Assembly: GCA_036502085.1 (NCBI GenBank)
Contig: DASXZD010000018.1
Coordinates: 16,094 to 80,093, forward strand
Direction: 5' to 3'
Length of the DNA stretch: 64,000 bases
Source of the DNA: Streptosporangiaceae bacterium
Lineage (GTDB): Bacteria > Actinomycetota > Actinomycetes > Streptosporangiales > Streptosporangiaceae
Of this stretch, positions 40,467 through 50,781 are shown piece by piece (the stretch's first letter is position 1; the number at the start of each line of letters is the position of its first letter). Both the position numbers and the translations under genes were made by a program. The notes under the pieces are model-generated. The model made no database searches and was not told the DNA's origin. It was given only the letters and a program-made list of their open reading frames with translations.

Positions 40467-40567
40467 CGCAACGAGCGTAGCCTGACCCGCCGCGGCCCGG
40501 TCTTCAGCCCGCGATCCCCGCGATCACCAGCCGCGGTCCTCACCCCGCGGCCAGCAGCCCGCAATCC

Positions 40568-40897
40568 TCAGTCCTCCGTGACCAGCATCTCGCCGAGCCG
40601 GGACCAGTCGTCCTGCGGGACCTCGAAGTTCACGATCCTGGGCGTCTCGGCCAGGTGCGGCGGCAGCCATTGCTGCGCCTTCTTGAAGTGCTCGGACTGA
40701 ACGTGCGCGGTCCCGGCCGCGCCGTCGCGGAACGCCTCGACCAGGACGTACTCGTTCGGGTCATCGACGCTGCGGGACCAGTCGAACCACAGGCAGCCGG
40801 GCTCGGCCCGGCAGGCCTGAGTGAACTCGCGGGTGATCTCGGGCCACCGGTCGGCATGCTCGGGGCGGATCAGGAACTTGGCGGTGATGAAGATCAT
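40568..40897 (-). CDS. antibiotic-biosynthesis-monooxygenase (ABM) domain protein
   Basis: 109 aa with ferredoxin-like pattern EPGCLWFDWSRS...YVLVEAFRD..A...H..S.HF. Confidence 0.8.
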   Translation of the reverse strand: MIFITAKFLIRPEHADRWPEITREFTQACRAEPGCLWFDWSRSVDDPNEYVLVEAFRDGAAGTAHVQSEHFKKAQQWLPPHLAETPRIVNFEVPQDDWSRLGEMLVTED

Positions 40898-41080
40898 CGG
40901 TCTCTCTCGTCCGGTCGGGACCAGGTCTCACTCGTGATCTTAGATGGCGGGCGGCGGATGGCCTGTGCCAAAATTTGACGCCGCCCGGCGGGCTGCCGGC
41001 CTGCGCGGTCACGATCCTGGCACCCGCGGACGCCCGCCGCGCGGGCGGCGGCGTACCGCGATACCGGTCAGCATCCCGGT

Positions 41081-41755
41081 GTGACCGAGCAGGAGGTTCC
41101 CCCCGGCGGCGAACTCGTCGGCGATGACGTGCCGTGGCAGGCGTGGTCGCCGGCCGAGGCCGCGGAGCGGCTGGCCGGGGTGCCGGTGCCGTGGGCGGTC
41201 GCGGGCGGCTGGGCCGTCGACCTGTTCTGTGGCCAGACGACGCGCGAGCACGACGACCTGGAGATCGCCATCCCGGCGGCAGGCTTCCCGGCCGTCCGCG
41301 CCGCGCTCAGCGACCTGGAGTTCGACGTGATCGGGGACGGCTGGCGCTGGCCGGCCGACAGCGAGGCCTTTGGCCTGCACCACCAGACCTGGGGCCGGGA
41401 GCCTGGCACCGGGATCTACCGGATCGACGTGTTCCGCGAGCCGCACGACGCCGGGAGCTGCCGCGACGCCGGGATCCGGAACGACGACGGGATCCGGAAC
41501 GACGACGGGATCTGGATCTGCCGCCGCGACGAGAGCATCAGGCGGCCGTACGACGAAGTGATCCTGCGGTCCGCCGACGGCATCCCCTACGTCGCACCGG
41601 AGATCGTGCTGCTGTTCAAGGCCAAGCACGCCCGGCCGAAGGACGAGGCCGACTTCGCCGGCCTGCTGCCGCTGATCGGCCCGGACCGCCGGGACTGGCT
41701 GACGGCGGCCCTGCGCCAGGTGCACCCCGGCCACCACTGGCTGGCCTCGCTCTGA
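41081..41755 (+). CDS. nucleotidyltransferase-fold protein (aminoglycoside/lincosamide NTase-like)
   Basis: WAVAGGWAVDLFCGQTTREHDDLEIAI (GG...D.D). Contains a GIRNDD x2 tandem insertion. Confidence 0.7.
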   Translation: MTEQEVPPGGELVGDDVPWQAWSPAEAAERLAGVPVPWAVAGGWAVDLFCGQTTREHDDLEIAIPAAGFPAVRAALSDLEFDVIGDGWRWPADSEAFGLHHQTWGREPGTGIYRIDVFREPHDAGSCRDAGIRNDDGIRNDDGIWICRRDESIRRPYDEVILRSADGIPYVAPEIVLLFKAKHARPKDEADFAGLLPLIGPDRRDWLTAALRQVHPGHHWLASL

Positions 41756-41913
41756 CCGGCGCGGGCCGAGCCTGGCCCGGCTATCGATAGCCGGGCCGAG
41801 ACCAAATAGCAGGCGTGAAGCAGGGCACCCGAAACTGACCTCAGCTTCGGGTGTTACCATCTCCGACGGGTATTGAACCGCGGCGCGGAATGCTGACCTA
41901 ACCTGACCGCTGG

Positions 41914-42084
41914 CTACTCTTGGGTGACGCCGAGCTTTTCCGGGTGGGCCTCGCGATAGTGCTGGGTCAGCACTTCGCTCACCTTGCCGGGCCGGTGCGC
42001 GATCGTGCGCTCACAGATCTGACATCGCACGGTCGGCAAATGCGTGACCGTCACCGGGAAGCGGCGCGAACGTGAATTATTCAT
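41914..42084 (-). CDS. small 56-aa CxxC...HxxxxH protein (below the track size cut-off)
   Basis: Own translation: MNNSRSRRFPVTVTHLPTVRCQICERTIAHRPGKVSEVLTQHYREAHPEKLGVTQE-stop. GC3 is about 79%. Confidence 0.5.
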   Translation of the reverse strand: MNNSRSRRFPVTVTHLPTVRCQICERTIAHRPGKVSEVLTQHYREAHPEKLGVTQE

Positions 42085-42689
42085 CACCGCCAATTATGCC
42101 ACCTGCCGGCGAGTCAGCGATACTAGGTCGGCCACATCCGCGCCACATCCGTGTCACACCCGCACCGCATCCGAATGGCCCCGCAGGATTTGTCGGCCTA
42201 CCACATGGAACGACCGGATGTTTCCGTCTAGATCCGTGATCCATGTGATATATAACACTCTGCTCCCACTGGTCCCTTTACGTCCGGGTGGGCCCTTCTC
42301 CGCGCCCTAACGCCGCGGTTCGTACCGGCCTGGCCGTCGGCGACCTCGTCAAATGCACCCGTCTGACCGCCCGGCTACCACCGGTCCGACCCGCCCAAGC
42401 CGCCGGACGTTTTTCGCAGATGCCACTAATCCGGACCACGGCTTCGTCGCGGCCAGGACGCGGAAGGCTGATGCCGCGGCCTTTCCTGATCAGTCGCCGG
42501 CCGCCGGACCTGGCCGGAACGGCCGGCCGCGGCGGCATACCTTTCCGCGGCCGGTCGCCGGCCATTCTGCCGTCGTCGCCGCGGCCCTTTCGCGCGCGCC
42601 GGAGCGGAGGTCCCTGTCGCCGCCGGGGCCGGCCGCGACACAATGAGCAGACCTCCCAACGGGGGAACTGACAAGGAGGCTGAGCCGTC

Positions 42690-43646
42690 ATGAAGCCATG
42701 CGCGGTGGTCACTGGAGGAGCCGGCTTCCTCGGCTCCCACCTGTGCGAACGGCTGCTCGCCGACGGTTACGACGTGATCTGCCTGGATAACTTCTGCACC
42801 GGATCACCCGCCAACGTCGAGCACCTGATCGGAACCGGATCCTTCCGGCTGATCAAGGCGGACGTCACCGATTTCATTCACGTCGGCACCAAGGTTGACG
42901 TCGTGTTCCACTTCGCGTCGCCCGCCTCGCCGATCGACTACATGCAGCTGCCGGTCGAGACGCTGAAAGTCGGCTCGATCGGCACTCTGCACACGCTGGG
43001 CCTGGCCAGGGAATGGAAGGCCCGCTACCTGCTCGCCTCCACCTCGGAGGTGTACGGCGATCCGCGGGTGCATCCGCAGCCCGAGACCTACTGGGGGCAC
43101 GTGAACACCGTCGGCCCGCGCGGCGTCTACGACGAGGCCAAGCGGTTCGGCGAGGCCATGACGATGGCCTACCGGCGGACGCACGGCGTGAACACGGCCA
43201 TCATGCGGATCTTCAACACGCACGGGCCGCGGATGCGGCCGAGCGATGGCCGGGCCATCCCCACGTTCATCCGCCAGGCGCTGAACGGCGAGCCGATCAC
43301 CGTGACCGGGGACGGCAGCCAGACGCGATCGATCCAGTACGTCGACGACCTCATCGAAGGGTGCATGCGGCTCGTGCGGTCGGGGCATCCCGGGCCGGTC
43401 AACATCGGCAACCCGCAGGAGATCAGCATGACCGGCCTGGCCGAGACAATCCGCGACCTGACCGGCTCGCGCAGCCCGATCAGCTACGTGCCCCGGCCGG
43501 TGGACGACCCGTCGGTTCGTCAGCCGGACACCACGCTGGCCCGCGAGGCACTCGGCTGGCAGCCCGCCGTCGGCCTCGAAGAGGGCCTGCGGCGGACGAT
43601 CGACTACTTCCGGGCCGTCCGAGCCCGGCCGGCCAGCACGCCCTAG
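42690..43646 (+). CDS. UDP-glucuronate decarboxylase (UXS-type extended SDR)
   Basis: [30 protein letters not shown], and near-colinear UXS motifs ([16 protein letters not shown]). Confidence 0.88.
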
Positions 43647-43647
43647 G

Positions 43648-45735
43648 TCACCGCGTGGTGGCTCGCACCGCGGGCCCGCGCAGCGACTCGGCCAGGCAGT
43701 ACCGTACGGCCAGCACGATCCGTTCCGCGTCGCCTTCGGTCAGCTCGGACGACATCGGCAGCGCGAGCACGCGGGCGTCCAGCTCCTCGGTGACCGGCAG
43801 CCGCTCCCCGCCGCCGAGCGCGGTCAGGTGCAGCGCACGGAAGTACGGCTTGGTCTGCACGCCGCAGTCCAGCAGCGACCGCAGCAGATCGTCGCGCCCG
43901 GCCTCTTGCGGCACCCGCATCACCCAGTGCACGTACGAATGCCGGTCGCCCGACCGCACCGCCTGCGGGGCCAGCCCCGGGATCCCGGCCAGCCCGTCCC
44001 GGTAGACCGCGGCGATGCGATTGCGCCGCCGCACCAGGTCGGCCAGGATCGCGAGCTGGTCGAGCGCGTAGATCGCGTGCAGCTCGTCGATCAGCTCCGA
44101 ACGGCACCAGCCCGCCGGATCGTCCCGCATGGCCGCGGCGGCCGCGGCCGGGAGCACGACCGCGCCGCCCGCGCCGCCCGCCGACAGCACCTTGGCGAAG
44201 CTCATCGAGAACGCGTGCGCGTCGGCCTGCCGGGCCAGCGGGCGGCCCCAGTGCAGGCTGCCCAGTGACGCCGCGGCGTCGCTGACCAGCGGGACGCCCG
44301 CCTCGCGGCAGACCGGCGCCAGCGCCTGGTAATCGCACGGATTGCCGAAGGTATCGACGCAGACGACCACGCGTACCGGACGCGAGGCGAGCTCCGTACG
44401 GAGAAAATCGGGGTTCAGGTTCCAGAAGTGCTCGTCGACGTCGGCGAAACGCAGCTGGTAGCCGAGCTGCAGGAGAACTTCGGCGGTCGCCGGGAAGGTG
44501 AACGAGGGCAGCAGCGCGACGTCGCCGGGCGCGGCGGGGCCCGCGGTCGCGGCCACCGCCAGCCGCAGCGCCGCGGTCCCCGACGCGGTGGCTATCACCG
44601 TGTGCTCCTCGCCGACGTCGAGCGCCCGCGCCAGCCCGTCCCGCAGTTCCTCGGACCAGCGGTTGCCGTGCTTGACCTCACCGCTCCACAGGCTCGCCTG
44701 CTGCCGGGCGGCCACCAGGTCGGGACGCGCGGCACGCGGCGGGATGACCACCGGGACGGCCGGCTCGAGCACCGGGCGGCCGTCCGCGCGCAGCACCGCG
44801 ACCATCTCCTCCAGGTGCGGGCGCAGCGGGCCGACCCTGTGACCAGCCGCGATGAGCCTGCTCGTGTCGATGATCCCGCCGCCGTCGCCAGCCGCGGGGG
44901 GCCGGGGGAGCACCGCCGACGCCGAGCCGCACAGCTCGCGGATCTCCTCGGCCAGCGCGACGAGCGAGACCGGTTCGCCGCCGACGTTGTAGATCCCCGG
45001 CGCCACCCCGGACCTGACGATTCCGGCAAGATCATTATTCCTAACGAAGCATTTCAGTCCCGTGCTTACCGACATCGGGTAACCGGCGATGGCCTTGCGG
45101 ATCAGCCCGCCGGCCCAGCCCTCACGGCCCGGACCGCAGACTTCGGCGAGCCGCAGGATGGTCAGCAGCTCCGGGTCGACCGACCGGGCGAGCAGCCGTT
45201 CCTGCGCCAGCTTGGACAGCGCGTAGGTCCACCGCCCGGACGGGCCGGCGGCGGCCAGGCGGCGGCCGGCCGGCGCGGACCGCCACGGCGGGCAGGGCTG
45301 CCGCGCGATCTCGGCCGCCTCGTCGCACCACGCGTCGATCTGCTCGACCGTCCAGGGCAGCTCGGGCGGGGTGTCCTCGCGCAGCAGGCCGGCCGCGCGG
45401 CCGTACACCTGAGCCGAGGACATCAGCAGCACCGGGCGGCCGGCCAGCGCGGGCAGGATCCGGGCCGTGGCCACCGCGTTGCTGACCGGCAGCGTCCAGC
45501 TCCAGCGCGGCCGCGGGTCGGCCGAGCCGAGCAGGATCACGGCCAGCCCTTCGGGCAGCGGCGGCGGCTCGTCGGTCAGCACGTCGGTCATCAGCCACTG
45601 CGCCCCGGCGCGGACCAGCTTCTCCCTGGGCGGGCACCGGTCGATGACCGTCACGTCGCAGCCCGCGGCGAGCAGCGCCTCGGTCACCGCGCTGCCCACG
45701 AACCCCGACCCGCCGAACAGCACGAACTTGCTCAT
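43648..45735 (-). CDS. fusion protein: NAD-dependent epimerase/dehydratase (N-terminal) + DegT/DnrJ/EryC1-type PLP aminotransferase (C-terminal)
   Basis: Start moved to ATG 45735 (MSKFVLFGGSGFVGSAV). YALSK catalytic dyad. No stop before the aminotransferase part (ATASGTAALRLAV, FSMSFAKVLSAGG with the PLP lysine). Confidence 0.8.
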   Translation of the reverse strand: MSKFVLFGGSGFVGSAVTEALLAAGCDVTVIDRCPPREKLVRAGAQWLMTDVLTDEPPPLPEGLAVILLGSADPRPRWSWTLPVSNAVATARILPALAGRPVLLMSSAQVYGRAAGLLREDTPPELPWTVEQIDAWCDEAAEIARQPCPPWRSAPAGRRLAAAGPSGRWTYALSKLAQERLLARSVDPELLTILRLAEVCGPGREGWAGGLIRKAIAGYPMSVSTGLKCFVRNNDLAGIVRSGVAPGIYNVGGEPVSLVALAEEIRELCGSASAVLPRPPAAGDGGGIIDTSRLIAAGHRVGPLRPHLEEMVAVLRADGRPVLEPAVPVVIPPRAARPDLVAARQQASLWSGEVKHGNRWSEELRDGLARALDVGEEHTVIATASGTAALRLAVAATAGPAAPGDVALLPSFTFPATAEVLLQLGYQLRFADVDEHFWNLNPDFLRTELASRPVRVVVCVDTFGNPCDYQALAPVCREAGVPLVSDAAASLGSLHWGRPLARQADAHAFSMSFAKVLSAGGAGGAVVLPAAAAAAMRDDPAGWCRSELIDELHAIYALDQLAILADLVRRRNRIAAVYRDGLAGIPGLAPQAVRSGDRHSYVHWVMRVPQEAGRDDLLRSLLDCGVQTKPYFRALHLTALGGGERLPVTEELDARVLALPMSSELTEGDAERIVLAVRYCLAESLRGPAVRATTR

Positions 45736-45773
45736 CGATAATCCCTCGGCCTGTCTGCGCGACTTTGGCACAT

Positions 45774-46556
45774 CTAGTCGACGCCGAGGGGCGGCCTCCG
45801 GCCTACAGCCATCAGCTGTTTGCCGATGTCGGCCAGGACCGGATGGGCGGACAACTCGCGCTCCAGGGCCAGCTGCCCGTCCCAGTCGAGTGCCAGCTGC
45901 TCGGCCAGCCGCTCGCGGCCGAGCGGTACCCCGGCCGCCAGCAGCCCGCTCACCTCGACCTCGCGCAGCCCGGCGGCCTCGAAGGCCGCCGTAAGCCTGG
46001 CCCGGTCCATCAGGTGCATCTCGGCGTCGTGCCCGTCGACCGTCCAGCACCCCACCCGGGTGCGCAGCCGCTGCGCCGCCTCCGCCGGGCGGCCCGCGCG
46101 CAGCAGCTCCACGACCAGCGCCACCAGCGAGTCGACCAGCACCGCGACCCGCCCGCCGGGGCGGACCCAGCGGGCGAACCGGCGCACGGTGGCCTCGGGA
46201 TCGGCCGCGTACTGCAGCGAGCCGAGGGCGAGGACCAGGCCGGCTTCTGCTTCGGGCAGCTCCGCGGTCTCCATCGAGCCTTCGATCAGGGTGAAGCCGG
46301 GCCCGTGCCCCGCGCGCCTCAGCTCGGCGATCATCCCCGGCGCCTGCTCGATCCCGATGACCTGGTAGCCCAGCTCGGTCAGCCGGCCGACCCAGCGTCC
46401 CACGCCGCAGCCGGCGTCGATGATGGGACCTTGCTCCGGCAGGAGCTGGCGCACGCGCTCCCAGGCCAGGGTGTCGTAGGCGCGCCGGTGCGGGGCCTCG
46501 AAATGCTCGCTGTACGTGGGGGCGAGCGCGCTGTACAGCTCCTGGCTCGGGCGCAT
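45774..46556 (-). CDS. class I SAM-dependent methyltransferase
   Basis: Start moved to ATG 46556. IIDAGCGVGRW motif I. Confidence 0.85.
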   Translation of the reverse strand: MRPSQELYSALAPTYSEHFEAPHRRAYDTLAWERVRQLLPEQGPIIDAGCGVGRWVGRLTELGYQVIGIEQAPGMIAELRRAGHGPGFTLIEGSMETAELPEAEAGLVLALGSLQYAADPEATVRRFARWVRPGGRVAVLVDSLVALVVELLRAGRPAEAAQRLRTRVGCWTVDGHDAEMHLMDRARLTAAFEAAGLREVEVSGLLAAGVPLGRERLAEQLALDWDGQLALERELSAHPVLADIGKQLMAVGRRPPLGVD

Positions 46557-46558
46557 GC

Positions 46559-47653
46559 TCACCTTTCCTTTTCCTGGATGTGGCCCAGCTGCTTGCGGCC
46601 GGCTCGCCACAGCAGGTCATCCAGGTAGGTCGTGGGGCGCCAGCGCAGGTTGAGGCTGTAGTTGCTGCCGCAGCCCGCGCAGTCCTTGCGGAACAGCCGC
46701 GCGTGCTCCTCCCGGTAGTGCGCCGACTCGATTACCTCGGTGATCGGCCGCTGCCTGATGTTGAAGGCGGGGTCGTGCGCCCAGCACCCGCCGATCTCGC
46801 CCCTCGAATGGATCATGAGCTTGAGCTGGGACTCGGCGCACGGAACGTCGCGCTGCACGACCTCGGAGAAGTGCCCCGGGATGTAGTTCAGGTCGGAGTA
46901 GCGCGGCAGCCAGTGCGGGTCGGCGCGCTTGACCGCTTCGAGCTTGCCGAGCGCGGCGGCGATCTCGCCGGAGTCCAGCACCTTCTGCCGGCTCACCTCG
47001 GGCGCGCGGAACAGGAACGTGTGGTCGGTGGCGAGGTTCAGGTAGAGCTGGACCCGCAGTTCCTGCGCCAGCCGTGCGATGTCCGGCAGGTGATCGATGT
47101 TGTCCCGCATCACGGTGAAGTTCATCCGCACCTTGAGCTTGAGGCTATCCCGCTGCTCGATCAGGTTGCGCAGGTGCGTGATCGTGGTCTCGAACGCGCC
47201 GAGCCGCCCTCGTATCCGGTCGTGCACCAGGCCGTTAGGACCGTCCACCGAGATGTTGAAGCTCCGGACGCCGGCCGCCAGCACGTCCTGGACTGTCCCG
47301 GGTGTGAGCCGGATGCCGTTGGTGTTCAGGTGCATGCGGCGCATGCCCAGGTCGCGGGCGAACGCCATGAGCTCGATCGCGTCCGGCCTGATCAGCGGCT
47401 CGCCGCCGGTGAAGTTCGCCTTGAGGATCCGCAGCTCGGCGAGCTGGCGCAGCACGTCCTTCCACTCGTCGGTGGTCAGCTCGTCCTTGGTGTTCTCCAG
47501 CCAGCAGCTGCAGCTTTTGCAGCGCAGGTTGCAGTTCTCGGTCAGGAACAGCTCGGCGACCAGCGGCCGGACGTGCAGATTAGGGGCGATCTTCCGCTTG
47601 ACGGCCAGCTGGGTGAAGAAGCTGGCTAGCTGGATGTTCTCCGCAACTTTCAT
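46559..47653 (-). CDS. radical SAM protein with a Cys-rich C-terminal (SPASM/twitch-like) region
   Basis: Start moved to ATG 47653 (ATGA overlap with the upstream stop). CNLRCKSCSC = CxxxCxxC. GGEPL. C-terminal CAES...GGCW...CAGCGS. Confidence 0.88.
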   Translation of the reverse strand: MKVAENIQLASFFTQLAVKRKIAPNLHVRPLVAELFLTENCNLRCKSCSCWLENTKDELTTDEWKDVLRQLAELRILKANFTGGEPLIRPDAIELMAFARDLGMRRMHLNTNGIRLTPGTVQDVLAAGVRSFNISVDGPNGLVHDRIRGRLGAFETTITHLRNLIEQRDSLKLKVRMNFTVMRDNIDHLPDIARLAQELRVQLYLNLATDHTFLFRAPEVSRQKVLDSGEIAAALGKLEAVKRADPHWLPRYSDLNYIPGHFSEVVQRDVPCAESQLKLMIHSRGEIGGCWAHDPAFNIRQRPITEVIESAHYREEHARLFRKDCAGCGSNYSLNLRWRPTTYLDDLLWRAGRKQLGHIQEKER

Positions 47654-48492
47654 GAGACCTTCCTCGCGGTCACGAAAATGTTTGCGGACCCGAAGATCTT
47701 GCCGTCCAGGTAGATGGCCCGCTCGAACCATCCGCGTACCGGCCCGCGGGTCAGCAGGGCCGGCACCTGGAACCAGCGCCAGAACAGGTTCGCGCCCTCG
47801 ACGGTGACCGGCTCGAAGCCGTGCCCGCGCAGCAGCGCGAGCAGGTCGGCGCGCCGGTAGTTCGTGTGGCAGTCTCTGCCGACCGACATGTCGCCGCGCA
47901 GCCCGTCGGACAGGTCGACGAACCGCTCCTCGTACACCCGGCGGCCGAACCGGGCCTGGTACGCCGTCCGGTGCAGCCTCGGGAACCGGAACTTCGCGTT
48001 GTCCGGATCGAGGAACGAGAAGACATGACGCTGCGGAGCGGTCAGCACGAGCAGCCCGCCCGGCACCAGCACGCGATGGATCTCGTCGAGCAGGCGGCCT
48101 TCGTCGGGGACGTGCTCCAGTACGTCGAGCAGCGAGACCGAGTCGAACTCGGCCGGGCCGAAGCACAGCTCGCCGTGCACCGGGAGCAGGTGGAGGGGCA
48201 GCTGGACTTTCTTCTCTTTGAGTGCGGCGAGGTAGCCGGGGTGCGGGTCGGCGCCGGAGCACTGGAGCGAGGTCGTGGCGGCGAGCGCGCAGACGAATTC
48301 GCCTTCGCTGCAGCCCAGGTCGAGGTGGCGGCCCGCGCGCCCGGCGAGTTGCTGCCAGGCGAACGCGTACCGCCGCAGGTGATGCCGGGCGAACGGGTTC
48401 GGCTCGCGGGGGTTTGGCTTGTCGGTGTTTAGCTCACCGGGGTTCAGCTCAGCGGTCACGGCCGTCACGACACAATCGCGCGCACAGCGCAT
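47650..48492 (-). CDS. class I SAM-dependent methyltransferase
   Basis: HLDLGCSEGEF motif I and LLDVLEHVPDE. Start is uncertain (ATG 48492 overlaps the upstream gene by 44 nt; GTG 48459/48468 are alternatives). Confidence 0.8.
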   Translation of the reverse strand: MRCARDCVVTAVTAELNPGELNTDKPNPREPNPFARHHLRRYAFAWQQLAGRAGRHLDLGCSEGEFVCALAATTSLQCSGADPHPGYLAALKEKKVQLPLHLLPVHGELCFGPAEFDSVSLLDVLEHVPDEGRLLDEIHRVLVPGGLLVLTAPQRHVFSFLDPDNAKFRFPRLHRTAYQARFGRRVYEERFVDLSDGLRGDMSVGRDCHTNYRRADLLALLRGHGFEPVTVEGANLFWRWFQVPALLTRGPVRGWFERAIYLDGKIFGSANIFVTARKVS

Positions 48493-48985
48493 CCAGGGTC
48501 TCGATGATGTGGCCGGGCGTGGCTGCGGGCGCGACCGGCCGCTCGCGCAGCAGCCGGTCCTGCTCGGCGTCGTGCCCCGCGACCGCCGCGGGCAACTCGG
48601 CGGTGTCCCAGACGGCGATGACCGGACCGGTGCGCTCCTCCATCCGCAGGTAGTCGACCTGGTGGTCGTTGCCCATCTCGCCCCGCGCCGACATCCTGGC
48701 CACGGCGATCGGAACCTTGTGCAGCCGCTGGACGAGTCGCACCGTGTTGCCGGCGTGGGTGATGACGATGTCCGCGGTCTTGATCCGCGCCTCCAGGTCG
48801 TCGAAAGCGATGAAGGGACTGTGCGGGCACGGCGGCGCCACGGTCGAGGTGCCTGTCTGCGCGAAGACTTCGTAGCCGGCGCAGATCGGCGCGAGCGCGC
48901 CGATGAGCCGGTCGAACGGCCACGGCCCCATGCCCACCGTGACCAGGATGCGGGCTCTGCCGGGCACGTCGGCAGTGCTGGCCAT
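48449..48985 (-). CDS. Alg13-like / GT28 C-terminal-domain glycosyltransferase subunit (PssE-like)
   Basis: Start moved to ATG 48985. ILVTVGMGPWPFDRL...ADIVITHAGNTV...VPIAVAR. Confidence 0.75.
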   Translation of the reverse strand: MASTADVPGRARILVTVGMGPWPFDRLIGALAPICAGYEVFAQTGTSTVAPPCPHSPFIAFDDLEARIKTADIVITHAGNTVRLVQRLHKVPIAVARMSARGEMGNDHQVDYLRMEERTGPVIAVWDTAELPAAVAGHDAEQDRLLRERPVAPAATPGHIIETLDALCARLCRDGRDR

Positions 48986-49449
48986 CAGTACAGCTCCCCG
49001 ATCAGGACGGAGCGAGGTCGGGCGGCGGCCAGCGAAGGCCGCTGGATAAGCACCGCGGCCGCCAGCCGACCGCAGACCCGGCTCGCTGCCCCGGACGTGC
49101 TCACGATGTTGAAGGTCTCCAGCCACAGGGCGGGCACCCGCATCAGCCGCGCGGCGATGAACATCCCCACCGCGACGCCCGACCCGGCCGAGATGATCAC
49201 GTCGGGACGCTCCCGGCGCAGGATCCGCAGTGCGCGGATGATCGCGGCCAGCACGCCGAGCGGCCTGCGGACCGACTGCTCCCGCTCCCAGTGCACCCGC
49301 TCGCCGGCCAGCAGCGCGGTCGTATCCGCCGCCTGCACGGCGACCCAGGCCGCATCCTGGCGGGCCACCCACGGCTGGAGCGCGAGCAGGTCGAGCAGCA
49401 CCCCGCCGCTGCTCGAAACCAGCAGCACCCGGTAACGGTGATCCTCCAT
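48985..49449 (-). CDS. Alg14-like glycosyltransferase membrane-anchor subunit (PssD-like)
   Basis: Start moved to ATG 49449 (MEDHRYRVLLVSSSGGVLLDLLAL). DVIISAGSGVAVGMFIAARLMRVPALWLETF. Confidence 0.75.
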   Translation of the reverse strand: MEDHRYRVLLVSSSGGVLLDLLALQPWVARQDAAWVAVQAADTTALLAGERVHWEREQSVRRPLGVLAAIIRALRILRRERPDVIISAGSGVAVGMFIAARLMRVPALWLETFNIVSTSGAASRVCGRLAAAVLIQRPSLAAARPRSVLIGELY

Positions 49450-49823
49450 GGCACCCCCGCCCCTCGCCTGCACTCGCGGCCGACCGGGGGCATAAGCCGC
49501 AACTCGATCGCTAACCCTATCGAGCCGGCTGGCCCGGCCGAACTGGGTCCCCGACGCCCAGATCCCCTCGCCGATGGCGGCCGCATTCCAGCTCGCACCG
49601 GCATTCGGGCAGGTCAGCTTGTACCGGCATGCCCGATTCCTGGGCATACGATACGGGCTCGCCGGCCACCGCATCAAGAGCCGTGCCGCACGCTCAGCCC
49701 GCCGGCCACCCGCCCCAGCACCCCCCACACCCACTCCCCACTCGCCAGCCGAAGGGCGTCGGACCGCACATCGCTGCCCTCAGGCGGGCAGCAAACCGCA
49801 TATCGACACCCTTCGGGCCTGGG

Positions 49824-50576
49824 TCAGCCGGGCGGACGGCGGGCGACGAAGACCACGCGGGGGTCGCGGTCCTCTGTGGTCTGCTCGGTCATGGACTCGG
49901 CCGTGAAGCCGGCCTCGGCCAGCAGGCTGAGCCAGGCCTCGCGGCCGAACAGCCCGAGCCGGTGCGTCTCGTGCACGACCCGGACCGGAGCGTCGAGGTC
50001 GCGCAGCATGTACACGTAGTCGGTCAGGGTCCAGGTGTCGGCGGGATCCGGATCCCAGGACCACTCCAGGAAGCGCGCCGACCGGCCGTCGTCGCCGTCA
50101 CCGCCGCCGCAGCCGGTGCCCGCCTCGAAGGTCTCGGTGATGTTGTCGGGGATGAAGATCGCGACCCCGCCGGGGCGGCAGTGCGCGAAGGCGGTGGCCA
50201 TCACCTGCCTGAGGTCGGCCTCGCTGGTCATGTAGGCCACCGCGTTGTGCACGAGCACGGCGTCGAAGGTCCGGCCCAGCCGGATGGTCCGCATGTCGCC
50301 CAGGACGTGCCGGCAGTCCGGATTGAGCTTTGCTGACACCTCGAGCATGGCCTCGGACAGGTCGACCAGCGTGAAGTCGAACCGTGCCTTTAGGTGACTG
50401 GCGTTGCTCCCGCCGCCGCTGCCCAGTTCCAGCACGTCACGGACCGGACCCGTGGCCAGCCCGAATGCTCCCGCCATGAAGGCCGCTTCTTCCGCGTAGT
50501 CCTGCGGCGGCGAGATCAGCGGCCACCAGCTGGCCAGGTCCTGATAGAGGCGGTAGTCCGCGGTCGCGTCAGCCAT
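49824..50576 (-). CDS. class I SAM-dependent methyltransferase
   Basis: Start moved to ATG 50576 (MADATADYRLYQDL). VLELGSGGGSNASHL motif I. Confidence 0.85.
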   Translation of the reverse strand: MADATADYRLYQDLASWWPLISPPQDYAEEAAFMAGAFGLATGPVRDVLELGSGGGSNASHLKARFDFTLVDLSEAMLEVSAKLNPDCRHVLGDMRTIRLGRTFDAVLVHNAVAYMTSEADLRQVMATAFAHCRPGGVAIFIPDNITETFEAGTGCGGGDGDDGRSARFLEWSWDPDPADTWTLTDYVYMLRDLDAPVRVVHETHRLGLFGREAWLSLLAEAGFTAESMTEQTTEDRDPRVVFVARRPPG

Positions 50577-50781
50577 GACGCCCATTGTCGGGGTTATCCT
50601 CGACAGCGGCTGGCCACCGGCTCGGCCGGCGCACTCCCATTCATGATCATCTTGCCTTTGCATGCGTTCTGGCCATTTCATGACCCGTTTTGTCCCGTTC
50701 CGTGGGCACGGAACGCGTGCAAAGAAGCGGGGTTCTCCCCGTGATCGTGGCGGGAGCCCGGACCGGCCTTCGGTGCGCCGC

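What the first reader, a model, noticed from the sequence alone, without database searches (positions are those of the whole stretch)
42690..49449. Sugar-modification operon combining an Alg14/Alg13-type split glycosyltransferase, a radical SAM enzyme, two methyltransferases and a fused epimerase-aminotransferase
**Seen in sequence.** Six minus-strand genes are tightly coupled, with overlaps of 1 nt (TGATG), a possible 44 nt, and 4 nt (ATGA), then gaps of 2 nt and 38 nt. In order they are:
- Alg14-like (48985..49449)
- Alg13-like (48449..48985)
- SAM methyltransferase (47650..48492)
- radical SAM with CNLRCKSCSC and a Cys-rich C-terminus (46559..47653)
- SAM methyltransferase (45774..46556)
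- SDR-aminotransferase fusion (43648..45735)

This operon is convergent, with a 1-nt gap, on a UDP-glucuronate decarboxylase (42690..43646).

**Established knowledge.**
- UXS/ArnA-type decarboxylation followed by a DegT-type transamination yields 4-amino pentoses.
- Alg13/Alg14-like pairs (PssD/PssE type) add a sugar to a lipid-linked intermediate.

**Inference.** The operon may build a methylated amino-sugar-containing glycan or glycolipid in which the radical SAM enzyme performs an unusual step such as C-methylation, epimerisation or C-C coupling. No priming transferase, flippase or polymerase is visible in the window. I do not recognise this gene combination as a described pathway.
Basis: partly seen in the sequence, partly recalled or inferred. 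Interest (0 to 1): 0.6.

Follow-up and report, generated by a model that had tools for sequence, protein, structure and literature searches.

The report
Radical-SAM sugar-editing glycan cassette
This is a real, compact set of six genes, plus a neighbouring UDP-xylose synthase gene, that most likely makes, chemically edits and transfers an unusual amino sugar for a cell-envelope glycan. The same set recurs in rare, scattered soil bacteria from several phyla, and nobody appears to have characterised it or its radical-SAM enzyme.

Summary
All seven genes are intact at the stated coordinates, and only the start of the first methyltransferase is uncertain.

**Conservation.** In 70 related loci the core is split GT-B glycosyltransferase (Alg14/Alg13-like), methyltransferase, twitch-type radical SAM and methyltransferase. 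It is almost invariant, and radical SAM→MT2 are always adjacent. The SDR–DegT fusion occurs in 49 of 70 loci. A small polyprenyl-phosphate phosphoglycosyltransferase sits inside the cassette in 11–12 loci from three phyla, and a UXS orthologue in about 10.

**Distribution.** The cassette is rare: 3/151 genomes of its own family and 8/121 Micromonospora species. Non-actinobacterial copies nest inside actinobacterial clades. Here it lies in a strain-variable 9.4-kb segment that also holds the genome's only UXS.

**Radical SAM.** It passes no curated family cut-off. Its best fold matches are the sugar-editing enzymes BlsE and DesII.

**Reading.** Best fit is an accessory lipid-carrier glycan module whose radical step is unknown. 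No paper or curated model describes it.

**Prior scan findings.** The scan found this cassette at least three times before on other DNA and reached the same verdict. New here are the empty-site comparison, the rarity figures, the UXS linkage and the fold data.

The parts
42690..43646 (+). UDP-glucuronate decarboxylase (UDP-xylose synthase, UXS), convergent on the operon with a 1-nt gap. It is an accessory partner of the cassette.
   Evidence: E=1e-106 over residues 6-309 to human UXS1; Pfam Epimerase/GDP_Man_Dehyd. It is the only UXS orthologue in the 87%-complete genome, with the next best hit at 33% identity. Orthologues of at least 50% identity lie within 10 kb of the cassette in about 10 of 70 loci, in several separate clades.
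43648..45735 (-). Fusion of an extended-SDR nucleotide-sugar C4-oxidoreductase-like domain (residues 1-~310) with a DegT-type PLP aminotransferase (residues ~330-695).
   Evidence: Pfam DegT 176 bits plus Epimerase. Invariant GGxGFxG, D32-R33, S106-S107, Y171xxxK175 and the PLP lysine K515 in SMSFAK. The SDR profile is closest to MoeE5 (UDP-GlcA 4-epimerase), GalE and UXS1. The aminotransferase is closest to TlmJ, DesI, WbpE and ArnB. Fused in 49 of 70 loci.
45774..46556 (-). MT2: class I SAM methyltransferase, always immediately downstream of the radical SAM gene.
   Evidence: Methyltransf_11/25. Weak PDB similarity to phosphoethanolamine N-methyltransferases and to the sugar N-methyltransferases CalS10, DesVI and TylM1. 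Present in 70 of 70 loci at +1066 to +1170 nt from the radical SAM start in nearly all.
46559..47653 (-). Radical SAM enzyme of an uncurated family, with C41x3C45x2C48 (+C50) and a twitch-type auxiliary-cluster motif C272x12Gx4C290 ... C325x2C328.
   Evidence: PF04055 81 bits. No NCBIfam cut-off is reached; the best is AhbD at 110 bits against a cut-off of 500. Relatives from four phyla are 52-84% identical and the 8 Cys are invariant. AF2 model pLDDT 74; Foldseek top hits are BlsE (E=2e-11), DesII, MoaA, SkfB and PqqE. No B12-binding or SPASM Pfam domain.
47650..48492 (-). MT1: class I SAM methyltransferase. Start uncertain (ATG 48492, GTG 48468 or GTG 48459).
   Evidence: Methyltransf_11/23. 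Homology starts at about residue 30. Fused in frame to the Alg13-like half in 36 of 70 loci and absent from 7. Weakly similar to RebM and MitM.
48449..48985 (-). Alg13/PssE-like donor-binding (C-terminal) half of a split GT-B glycosyltransferase.
   Evidence: NCBIfam PssE E=5e-16 (58.9 bits, cut-off 120) and WelK C-terminal half E=3e-9. AF2 pLDDT 92. Foldseek matches the nucleotide-sugar-binding halves of YjiC, human UGT2B, GtfA and MurG (TMq up to 0.61).
48985..49449 (-). Alg14/PssD-like acceptor-side (N-terminal) half of the split GT-B glycosyltransferase. It has no membrane anchor.
   Evidence: NCBIfam PssD E=2e-18 (67.4 bits, cut-off 110), plus WelK N-terminal half and MurG. Pfam Alg14 E=1e-4. 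No hydrophobic N-terminal segment.

Best explanation
The six minus-strand genes, with the adjacent UXS, form a self-contained, horizontally mobile accessory module. It synthesises and edits an unusual sugar unit on the cytoplasmic face of the membrane for an envelope glycan or glycolipid.

**Shown**
- All enzymes are intact.
- The set is co-inherited.
- All six products are soluble.

**Inferred pathway**
1. The SDR domain oxidises a UDP-sugar at C4. The substrate is probably UDP-GlcA-derived or UDP-xylose, the latter supplied by the island's own UXS.
2. The fused DegT domain transaminates the keto sugar to a UDP-4-amino sugar.
3. A polyprenyl-phosphate phosphoglycosyltransferase starts a lipid-linked intermediate. 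It is encoded inside the cassette in some relatives. Here it would be a gene elsewhere, such as the C57 Bac_transf gene or a WecA-type enzyme.
4. The heterodimeric Alg14/Alg13-like GT-B enzyme adds the next sugar.
5. MT1, which is physically fused to the Alg13 half in half of all relatives, methylates at or right after transfer.
6. The twitch radical SAM abstracts a hydrogen from the sugar ring. Its fully Cys-ligated auxiliary cluster relays the electron, in an oxidation, decarboxylation or epimerisation-type step akin to BlsE, DesII or BtrN.
7. The obligatorily adjacent MT2 methylates the group so created or exposed.

The exact substrate, the order of steps and the final acceptor are not known.
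For: - **Gene identities:**
- **Co-conservation in 70 loci:** rSAM 70, MT2 70, Alg13 69, Alg14 67, MT1 60, fused SDR-AT 49. rSAM-MT2 adjacency survives rearrangement of the other genes.
- **Phosphoglycosyltransferase in the cassette:**
  - A small Bac_transf enzyme lies inside the cassette in 11-12 loci of Actinomycetota, Chloroflexota and Alphaproteobacteria.
  - In Actinoallomurus spadix it overlaps the SDR-AT gene by 4 nt.
  - It scores E=3e-81 against the EPS polyprenyl glycosylphosphotransferase model.
- **Acidobacteria copy:** it sits beside UDP-glucose dehydrogenase, an NDP-heptose pathway and a Wzy_C gene.
- **Alg13-MT1 fusion:** one open frame in 36 of 70 loci.
- **UXS:** it is the genome's only copy and lies in the same strain-variable segment.
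- **Radical SAM:** the best fold matches are the (nucleotide-)sugar-editing enzymes BlsE and DesII. The C-terminus has the 4-Cys twitch pattern.
- **Localisation:** none of the six proteins has a transmembrane segment.
Against: - No phosphoglycosyltransferase, flippase, polymerase or ligase is in this window. Most cassettes (about 58 of 70) lack a local phosphoglycosyltransferase, so the lipid-linked acceptor is inferred from a minority of contexts.
- PssD/EpsE-type Alg14 halves normally carry a membrane anchor, and this one does not.
- Radical SAM fold similarity to BlsE and DesII is modest (TM about 0.55-0.6, about 20% identity). It is nearly matched by the peptide-modifying SkfB, PqqE and SuiB.
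- UXS accompanies only about 10 of 70 cassettes, and the Acidobacteria form has no aminotransferase nearby.
- No product has been observed anywhere.
Confidence: 0.55

Rival explanations
1. The cassette makes a soluble small molecule, a glycoside or nucleoside-type specialised metabolite. This would resemble the blasticidin/gougerotin logic (UDP-GlcA + glycosyltransferase + radical SAM BlsE + aminotransferase + N-methyltransferase) or the gentamicin garosamine logic (UDP-xylose + GT + oxidoreductase + aminotransferase + N-MT + radical SAM).
For: - All six proteins are soluble and the Alg14 half has no anchor.
- The best radical SAM fold match is BlsE.
- There are UDP-GlcA/UDP-xylose links through UXS here and UGDH in Acidobacteria.
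- The distribution is rare, patchy and HGT-like, as is typical of specialised metabolism.
- Most loci have no membrane machinery nearby.
Against: - No conserved transporter, regulator, resistance gene, nucleobase-releasing enzyme or peptide ligase accompanies the cassette.
- When extra conserved genes are present they include a polyprenyl-phosphate phosphoglycosyltransferase (alongside an unknown protein and a second radical SAM), and, in the one Acidobacteria locus, Wzy_C and heptose-pathway genes.
- Alg14/Alg13-type enzymes with known acceptors use lipid-PP-sugars (established knowledge).
Confidence: 0.2
2. The cassette does not build its own polymer. It decorates an existing housekeeping precursor or macromolecule, such as a wall-polymer linkage unit, a peptidoglycan precursor or a protein, with a single edited sugar.
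For: - Most copies, including this one, carry no initiating transferase, flippase or polymerase.
- In Actinoallomurus the cassette lies directly downstream of mreCD-PBP2-rodA.
- The GT is MurG-like.
Against: - A cassette-encoded phosphoglycosyltransferase in 11-12 loci argues for starting a new lipid-linked unit.
- The mre adjacency is seen in only one genus.
Confidence: 0.2
3. The copy in this genome is an inactive remnant: an incomplete cassette lacking its phosphoglycosyltransferase.
For: The closest relatives (L013, L014, L016, L017, L019) have a phosphoglycosyltransferase next to the cassette and this window does not.
Against: - All six ORFs are full length, with coding GC3 of 0.90-0.94 and invariant catalytic residues.
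- A sibling MAG keeps the same arrangement at 95-97% identity.
- All Micromonospora, Actinoplanes and Kribbella copies also lack a local phosphoglycosyltransferase.
- The genome encodes other Bac_transf and WecA-type enzymes.
Confidence: 0.05

Closest known systems
PssD/PssE (Rhizobium leguminosarum), Cps14F/Cps14G (S. pneumoniae type 14), EpsE/EpsF (Lactococcus), WelK, eukaryotic Alg14/Alg13
   Same: A GT-B glycosyltransferase split into an approximately 150-aa acceptor half and an approximately 170-aa donor half, encoded by adjacent overlapping genes. In some relatives it sits next to a priming phosphoglycosyltransferase, as in PssA/D/E and Cps14E/F/G.
   Different: - Scores fall below the NCBIfam cut-offs: 67 against 110 and 59 against 120 bits.
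- The Alg14 half has no N-terminal membrane anchor.
- The Alg13 half is fused to a methyltransferase in half of the relatives.
- It is always paired with a radical SAM enzyme, which none of the known systems has.
BlsE (cytosylglucuronate decarboxylase, blasticidin S) and DesII (TDP-4-amino-4,6-dideoxyglucose deaminase, desosamine)
   Same: These are the best structural matches of the radical SAM model: Foldseek E=2e-11 and 4e-10, and a BlsE sequence-profile hit at E=2.5e-15. Both edit a sugar ring attached to a nucleobase or nucleotide. Both work in pathways with a DegT aminotransferase and an N-methyltransferase.
   Different: - Identity is only about 20% and TM 0.55-0.6.
- The TIGR04466 score is 66 bits against a cut-off of 400, and DesII's TIGR04426 is not among the best 25 of 68 NCBIfam hits listed.
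- This family has its own invariant 4-Cys twitch motif and an extra Cys after the CX3CX2C.
- The pathway context is a split GT, not a macrolide or nucleoside cluster.
Gentamicin A2 to X2 steps (GenM2 xylosyltransferase, GenD2, GenS2, GenN, GenD1)
   Same: The same logical set: a UDP-xylose-derived sugar, a glycosyltransferase, an oxidoreductase plus aminotransferase, an N-methyltransferase and a radical SAM enzyme (PMC4340712 abstract).
   Different: - GenD1 is described in PMC4340712 as a radical SAM C-methyltransferase and, from prior knowledge, is cobalamin-dependent; this enzyme has no B12 domain.
- The oxidoreductase here is an extended SDR fused to the aminotransferase.
- No aminocyclitol genes are present.
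- No homology beyond superfamily level was tested or found.
Campylobacter Pgl-type initiation (PglF/PglE/PglC/PglA) and ArnA/ArnB
   Same: An NDP-sugar C4 oxidation is followed by DegT transamination to a 4-amino sugar. A small monotopic Bac_transf phosphoglycosyltransferase sits next to these genes in some relatives.
   Different: - There is no acetyl- or formyltransferase.
- The SDR and aminotransferase are fused.
- The aminotransferase matches ArnB, PseC and DesI only at E=1e-26 to 1e-35, far below the equivalog cut-offs.

Membership tests
PssD/Cps14F and PssE/Cps14G split glycosyltransferase (NF041549 / NF041548) | Whole-protein score above the curated NCBIfam cut-off | tested here: not met
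   PssD scores 67.4 bits against a cut-off of 110. PssE scores 58.9 against 120. They are homologous but not equivalogs.
PssD/Cps14F and PssE/Cps14G split glycosyltransferase (NF041549 / NF041548) | Two adjacent genes encoding the N- and C-terminal halves of one GT-B fold | tested here: met
   The genes share a 1-nt overlap. The Alg14 half matches the MurG N-terminal half. The Alg13 model (pLDDT 92) matches the donor-binding halves of YjiC, UGT2B, GtfA and MurG.
PssD/Cps14F and PssE/Cps14G split glycosyltransferase (NF041549 / NF041548) | N-terminal membrane anchor on the Alg14-like half (from prior knowledge of Alg14, Cps14F and EpsE) | tested here: not met
   There is no hydrophobic N-terminal segment. 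The only window above 1.6 KD is an internal Rossmann strand at residues 84-102.
PssD/Cps14F and PssE/Cps14G split glycosyltransferase (NF041549 / NF041548) | Acts on a lipid-PP-sugar made by an adjacent priming phosphoglycosyltransferase | tested here: inconclusive
   There is no Bac_transf or MraY-type gene in the window. A homologous small phosphoglycosyltransferase lies inside the cassette in 11-12 of 70 relatives. Activity cannot be tested with these tools.
Radical SAM superfamily (PF04055) | CX3CX2C cluster motif and Pfam score above the gathering threshold | tested here: met
   C41NLRC45KSC48 is invariant in 12 sequences. PF04055 scores 81.3 bits against a threshold of 29.5.
SPASM subfamily (PF13186, 7-Cys motif, two auxiliary clusters) | Full CX9-15GX4C...CX2CX5CX3C...C motif or a PF13186 hit | tested here: not met
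   No PF13186 hit. Only four conserved C-terminal Cys are present.
Twitch-domain radical SAM enzymes (BtrN, MoaA type) | Abbreviated C-terminal domain with one auxiliary cluster: CX9-15GX4C plus a later CX2C | tested here: met
   C272-x12-G-x4-C290 and C325-x2-C328 are invariant. The model shows a beta-hairpin at 278-289 followed by a helix. Cluster binding itself cannot be tested here.
BlsE (TIGR04466) / DesII (TIGR04426) | Score above the equivalog cut-off | tested here: not met
   BlsE scores 65.9 bits against a cut-off of 400. DesII is not among the best 25 of 68 NCBIfam hits listed. The similarity is at fold level only.
Class B (cobalamin-dependent) radical SAM methylases (GenD1, GenK, Fom3) | N-terminal B12-binding domain | tested here: not met
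   Only PF04055 and Fer4_12 are found. The protein starts 40 residues before the CX3CX2C motif.
DegT/DnrJ/EryC1/StrS sugar aminotransferases (PF01041) | Pfam score above threshold and a conserved PLP-binding lysine (not the His of the dehydratase subgroup) | tested here: met
   The score is 175.7 bits against a threshold of 19.8. K515 in SMSFAK is invariant in 15 sequences.
Extended SDR nucleotide-sugar epimerase/dehydratase/decarboxylase (PF01370) | GxxGxxG NAD site and a Ser...YxxxK catalytic triad | tested here: met
   G8-G9-x-G11-F-x-G14, S106/S107 and Y171-x3-K175 are invariant. PF01370 is found in 15 of 15 members. An unusual insert of about 60 residues with a CPPW motif lies between the Ser and the Tyr.
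UDP-glucuronate decarboxylase / UDP-xylose synthase (UXS) | Full-length close similarity to biochemically and structurally characterised UXS | tested here: met
   E=1.3e-106 over residues 6-309 to human UXS1 (4gll, 2b69). The next class of hit (GalE) is at 6e-43. Activity was not assayed.

The most novel reading that the evidence does not exclude
The radical SAM-MT2 pair carries out a radical editing step not yet described in glycan assembly. It would act on a nucleotide-activated or lipid-linked sugar in complex with a split GT-methyltransferase. Candidate reactions are radical oxidation or decarboxylation of a uronic-acid or pentose residue followed by methyl capture. This would be the first radical SAM enzyme that is a core component of a polyprenyl-phosphate glycan pathway, and its product would be a new bacterial sugar.
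Probability: 0.35. Interest if true: 0.75.

Novelty: new variant of a known kind. Interest (0 to 1): 0.55.

Why it matters
Radical SAM chemistry on sugars is so far known mainly from antibiotic pathways such as desosamine, butirosin, blasticidin, gentamicin and tunicamycin.

Here a highly conserved enzyme (52-84% identical across four phyla), belonging to no curated family, is locked to a split glycosyltransferase and two methyltransferases. In some genomes it is also locked to a lipid-carrier initiating enzyme.

Solving it would do three things:
- Define a new radical SAM subfamily and its reaction.
- Probably reveal a new bacterial sugar.
- Explain a mobile envelope-glycan module of soil Actinomycetota, Chloroflexota, Acidobacteria and Alphaproteobacteria.

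Several cultured carriers exist (Actinoallomurus spadix, Micromonospora tulbaghiae, M. humi, Actinoplanes auranticolor, Kribbella monticola, Roseiarcus fermentans), so the question can be tested directly.

Tried and rejected
- **MT3 (49824-50681, -) as a seventh member: rejected.**
  - It has no homologue in any of the 70 loci.
  - Congeners without the cassette keep it at the same site, at 80-82% nucleotide identity.
- **Other conserved neighbours:** ORF clustering of all loci found none beyond the six genes and UXS. The next clusters were antisense artefacts or genus-specific synteny.
- **RiPP reading (SPASM-like enzyme plus hidden precursor):**
  - No conserved small ORF was found.
  - The genes are tightly coupled.
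  - No Rfam element was found either.
- **Anti-phage defence reading:** PADLOC gave only superfamily-level hits, to the viperin core and an MT domain.
- **Plasmid carriage:** no match in PLSDB.
- **Literature:** seven full-text searches found nothing on this gene set. They covered Alg13/14 with radical SAM, PssD/E, BlsE homologues, DVU_1556/TIGR04053 and twitch radical SAM with polysaccharide. Only gentamicin papers surfaced as an analogy.
- **Promoter and terminator scan:** nothing was found in the 375-nt upstream gap. The scan targets sigma-70 consensus, so this is uninformative for a high-GC actinomycete.
- **Residue-level comparison with the BlsE active site:** not possible, because the structure paper is not in the library.

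Full report
**1. The observation**

The window is 71% GC. It lies on contig C18 of a 3.9-Mb, 87%-complete assembly whose nearest named relatives are Streptosporangiaceae MAGs.

Domain searches confirm each assignment. The plus-strand gene 42690-43646 matches human UDP-glucuronate decarboxylase UXS1 at E=1e-106 over its whole length.

The junctions (TGATG, ATGA, 2-nt gap, 38-nt gap, and a 1-nt gap to the convergent UXS) are as described. Only the start of MT1 is doubtful:
- Similarity to relatives begins near residue 30.
- In-frame GTG codons at 48468 and 48459 would shorten the overlap to 20 or 11 nt.
- In 36 of 70 related loci Alg13 and MT1 are a single open frame. The odd overlap here therefore looks like the seam of a fusion/fission event.

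An independent MAG contig (L076) carries radical SAM-MT2-SDR/AT-UXS in the same arrangement at 95-97% protein identity. The arrangement is therefore not an assembly artefact.

**2. Conservation**

The radical SAM protein has hundreds of close relatives: 710 with E<=1e-10 among the 8000 candidates scored, and the best 120 all above 525 bits. A scan of one genome per species returned 70 usable loci. Using tblastn with the window's proteins, the counts out of 70 loci were:

| Gene | Loci |
|---|---|
| radical SAM | 70 |
| MT2 | 70 |
| Alg13-like | 69 |
| Alg14-like | 67 (+2 partial) |
| MT1 | 60 (+3 partial; absent in 7) |
| fused SDR-aminotransferase | 49 |
| related unfused aminotransferase | 9 |
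| distant DegT only | 9 |
| UXS orthologue (>=50%) | about 10 |
| MT3 | 0 |

- The gene order varies. For example, in the Kribbella, Nocardioides and Mycobacteriales forms the GT genes sit downstream of a reversed SDR-AT.
- MT2 nevertheless starts within about 1.07-1.17 kb of the radical SAM start in nearly every locus.
- Clustering all ORFs of all loci revealed no further widely conserved gene.
- The invariant unit is therefore GT (two halves) + radical SAM + MT2. MT1 and the amino-sugar branch are frequent additions.

**3. Context in other lineages**

A small polyprenyl-phosphate phosphoglycosyltransferase (Bac_transf, 202-235 aa, one N-terminal hydrophobic helix) is part of the cassette in 11-12 loci. 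It scores E=3e-81 against the EPS sugar-transferase model. The loci are:
- The window's closest relatives (Streptosporangiaceae MAGs L013 and L014; Actinoallomurus L016 and L017; L019)
- Solirubrobacterales
- A Chloroflexota MAG
- Roseiarcus and a Xanthobacteraceae MAG

In Actinoallomurus spadix its start overlaps the SDR-AT stop by 4 nt.

Several of the Solirubrobacterales, Chloroflexota and alphaproteobacterial loci also carry two further genes:
- A 301-324-aa protein with no Pfam or NCBIfam match
- A second radical SAM/SPASM gene

The Acidobacteria copy lies beside UDP-glucose dehydrogenase, an NDP-heptose pathway and a Wzy_C gene.

This window has none of these. The genome's Bac_transf genes (C57, C44), three MraY/WecA-type genes and two UGDH genes all lie on other contigs.

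**4. Distribution and mobility**

The cassette is rare:

| Sample | Genomes with the cassette |
|---|---|
| Window's own family (including this one) | 3 of 151 |
| The genus of locus L020 (Micromonospora) | 8 of 121 |
| Genomes sampled across the phylum (including this one) | 4 of 401 |
| PLSDB plasmids | none |

In a maximum-likelihood tree of the radical SAM, the Sphingobium, Roseiarcus, Xanthobacteraceae, Chloroflexota, Acidobacteria and 'Enterobacterales' MAG sequences nest inside actinobacterial clades. Nocardioides appears in two separate clades. This pattern indicates horizontal transfer.

Comparison with two congeners that lack the cassette gives an 'empty site':
- In G021 the enoyl-CoA hydratase gene and the MT3 gene are 1.0 kb apart, with one LigD-polymerase-like gene between them.
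- In G104 they are 17.5 kb apart with unrelated genes between.
- In this window they are 9.4 kb apart. The interval holds an ABM monooxygenase, a nucleotidyltransferase-like gene, UXS and the six-gene cassette.

UXS is the only UXS orthologue in the assembly. The cassette and UXS thus occupy one strain-variable segment. Together with the recurrent adjacency in other clades, this ties UDP-xylose, or its UDP-GlcA precursor, to the pathway.

Base composition of the segment does not stand out.

**5. The enzymes**

*Radical SAM*
- It has the CX3CX2C motif, a fourth invariant Cys two residues later, and an invariant C-x12-G-x4-C ... C-x2-C tail. This is the single-auxiliary-cluster 'twitch' pattern, not the 7-Cys SPASM pattern.
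- It has no B12 domain.
- It passes no NCBIfam cut-off. The best hits are the N-terminal barrels of AhbD, TIGR04053, PqqE and NirJ.
- An AlphaFold model (pLDDT 74, pTM 0.79) matches BlsE best (E=2e-11, TMq 0.59). DesII, MoaA, SkfB, PqqE, SuiB and viperins follow.
- The two top hits edit sugar rings attached to a nucleobase or nucleotide, and MoaA and viperin act on nucleoside triphosphates. This mildly favours a (nucleotide-)sugar substrate over a peptide.

*SDR-aminotransferase fusion*
- The SDR domain keeps the NAD site and the Ser/Tyr/Lys triad. It has a family-specific insert of about 60 residues.
- As a profile it is closest to MoeE5 (UDP-GlcA 4-epimerase), GalE and UXS1, all C4-oxidising UDP-sugar enzymes.
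- The aminotransferase domain keeps the PLP lysine. It is closest to TlmJ, DesI, WbpE and ArnB.

*Methyltransferases*
- MT2 weakly resembles phosphoethanolamine and amino-sugar N-methyltransferases (CalS10, DesVI, TylM1).
- MT1 weakly resembles RebM and MitM.

*Glycosyltransferase halves*
- The Alg13-like model (pLDDT 92) is the donor-binding half of a GT-B enzyme, matching YjiC, the UDPGA-binding domain of UGT2B, GtfA and MurG.
- The Alg14-like protein matches PssD, WelK and MurG N-terminal halves.

None of the six proteins has a transmembrane segment.

**6. Most likely mechanism**

The shown parts are the intact enzymes, their co-inheritance and their predicted folds. The inferred sequence is:
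1. UDP-sugar C4 oxidation and transamination by the fusion give a UDP-4-amino sugar.
2. A phosphoglycosyltransferase, either cassette-encoded or resident in the genome, primes a polyprenyl phosphate.
3. The split GT adds a sugar.
4. MT1, often covalently fused to the GT donor half, methylates.
5. The radical SAM performs a hydrogen-abstraction-initiated oxidation, decarboxylation or epimerisation-type step.
6. MT2 methylates the resulting position.

I put 0.55 on the general 'lipid-carrier envelope glycan module' reading. No single chemistry for the radical step deserves more than about 0.25.

Rival readings and my estimates:
- A soluble glycoside or nucleoside-type metabolite: 0.2.
- Single-sugar decoration of an existing precursor or macromolecule: 0.2.
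- An inactive remnant: 0.05.

**7. Comparison with known systems**

- The GT is homologous to PssD/PssE and Cps14F/G but fails their curated cut-offs. It lacks the usual anchor.
- The AT / radical SAM / N-MT trio echoes DesI/DesII/DesVI.
- The UDP-GlcA link and the top fold hit echo the blasticidin pathway (BlsE).
- The UDP-xylose, GT, oxidoreductase, AT, N-MT and radical SAM set echoes gentamicin A2-to-X2 (PMC4340712). That radical SAM is cobalamin-dependent, by prior knowledge, and this one is not.
- None of these is a membership. Each is an analogy or a superfamily relation (see the membership table).
- Seven literature searches and the Pfam, NCBIfam, PADLOC and Rfam libraries gave no description of this cassette.

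**8. Relation to earlier scan notes**

The scan has met this cassette before on other genomes: e1-3055524, e1-2838813, e1-2427592, and the first-reader notes e1-3055525 and e1-2433888. The earlier verdict was the same: real, about 70 loci, three or more phyla, uncharacterised. I re-derived those points independently.

- Within-taxon rarity figures
- The empty-site comparison with congeners
- The single-copy UXS linkage
- The count of Alg13-MT1 fusions
- The count of cassette-linked phosphoglycosyltransferases, including in the window's nearest relatives
- Fold evidence for the radical SAM and the Alg13 half

**9. Verdict**

This is a genuine, intact copy of a conserved but uncharacterised radical-SAM-containing glycan cassette. 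It is a new variant of the known phosphoglycosyltransferase plus split-GT plus nucleotide-sugar-tailoring scheme. Interest is moderate to high for glyco-enzymology (0.55). It is tempered because the function is inferred only from context and the scan has already flagged the cassette elsewhere.

Noticed in passing
window 40500-49830: The interval between the enoyl-CoA hydratase gene and MT3 is strain-variable. It is 1.0 kb (one LigD-polymerase-like gene) in congener G021 and 17.5 kb of unrelated genes in congener G104. Here it is 9.4 kb, holding ABM monooxygenase, a nucleotidyltransferase-like gene, UXS and the cassette. No integrase, tRNA or flanking repeat was looked for.
   Followed up: partly
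window 49824-50681 (-): A third SAM methyltransferase (MT3) lies 375 nt upstream of the operon on the same strand. It is a resident gene, 80-82% identical at nucleotide level in congeners that lack the cassette, and is absent from all 70 related loci. It is not part of the cassette.
   Followed up: yes
window 41756-42689: About 0.9 kb upstream of UXS has weak coding signal. The only plausible ORF is 41914-42093 (-), 59 aa, GC3 0.80, with a C-x2-C ... H-x4-H pattern reminiscent of a small zinc-binding protein. The 600 nt next to UXS have no convincing ORF and no Rfam match.
   Followed up: partly
L086 12655-13560, L088 12555-13508, L087 3843-4817 (also L042, L044, L066, L040, L069): An 'extended' form of the cassette in Alphaproteobacteria, Chloroflexota, Solirubrobacterales and an Acidimicrobiales MAG (L069) carries a conserved 301-324-aa protein. 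It has no Pfam or NCBIfam match and, in the Roseiarcus copy tested, one central hydrophobic stretch. Its C-terminal 'DAVAMDQSGC' motif may be worth a fold prediction.
   Followed up: partly
L086 7121-8302, L088 15233-16378, and L042, L066, L069: A second, unrelated radical SAM/SPASM gene (381-393 aa) accompanies the cassette in these loci. Its best NCBIfam hits are the tungsten-cofactor maturase-like and N-terminal-twitch families. It is absent from this genome.
   Followed up: partly
window 12378-13802 (-): A GT2 glycosyltransferase here is 37% identical to the GT2 that sits between rodA and the cassette in Actinoallomurus spadix, where the cassette follows mreC-mreD-PBP2-rodA.
   Followed up: no
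window 16612-17118 (-), inside ORF 15871-17463: Another radical SAM gene in the window, 29-30% identical to the cassette enzyme over its N-terminal barrel. It was not examined.
   Followed up: no
L010 / L011 (Acidobacteria): This cassette form has no nearby aminotransferase. It is followed by UDP-glucose dehydrogenase, an adh_short SDR, a GFO/IDH/MocA oxidoreductase, a full NDP-heptose pathway (GHMP kinase, nucleotidyltransferase, SIS, HAD, transaldolase-like) and a Wzy_C gene.
   Followed up: partly
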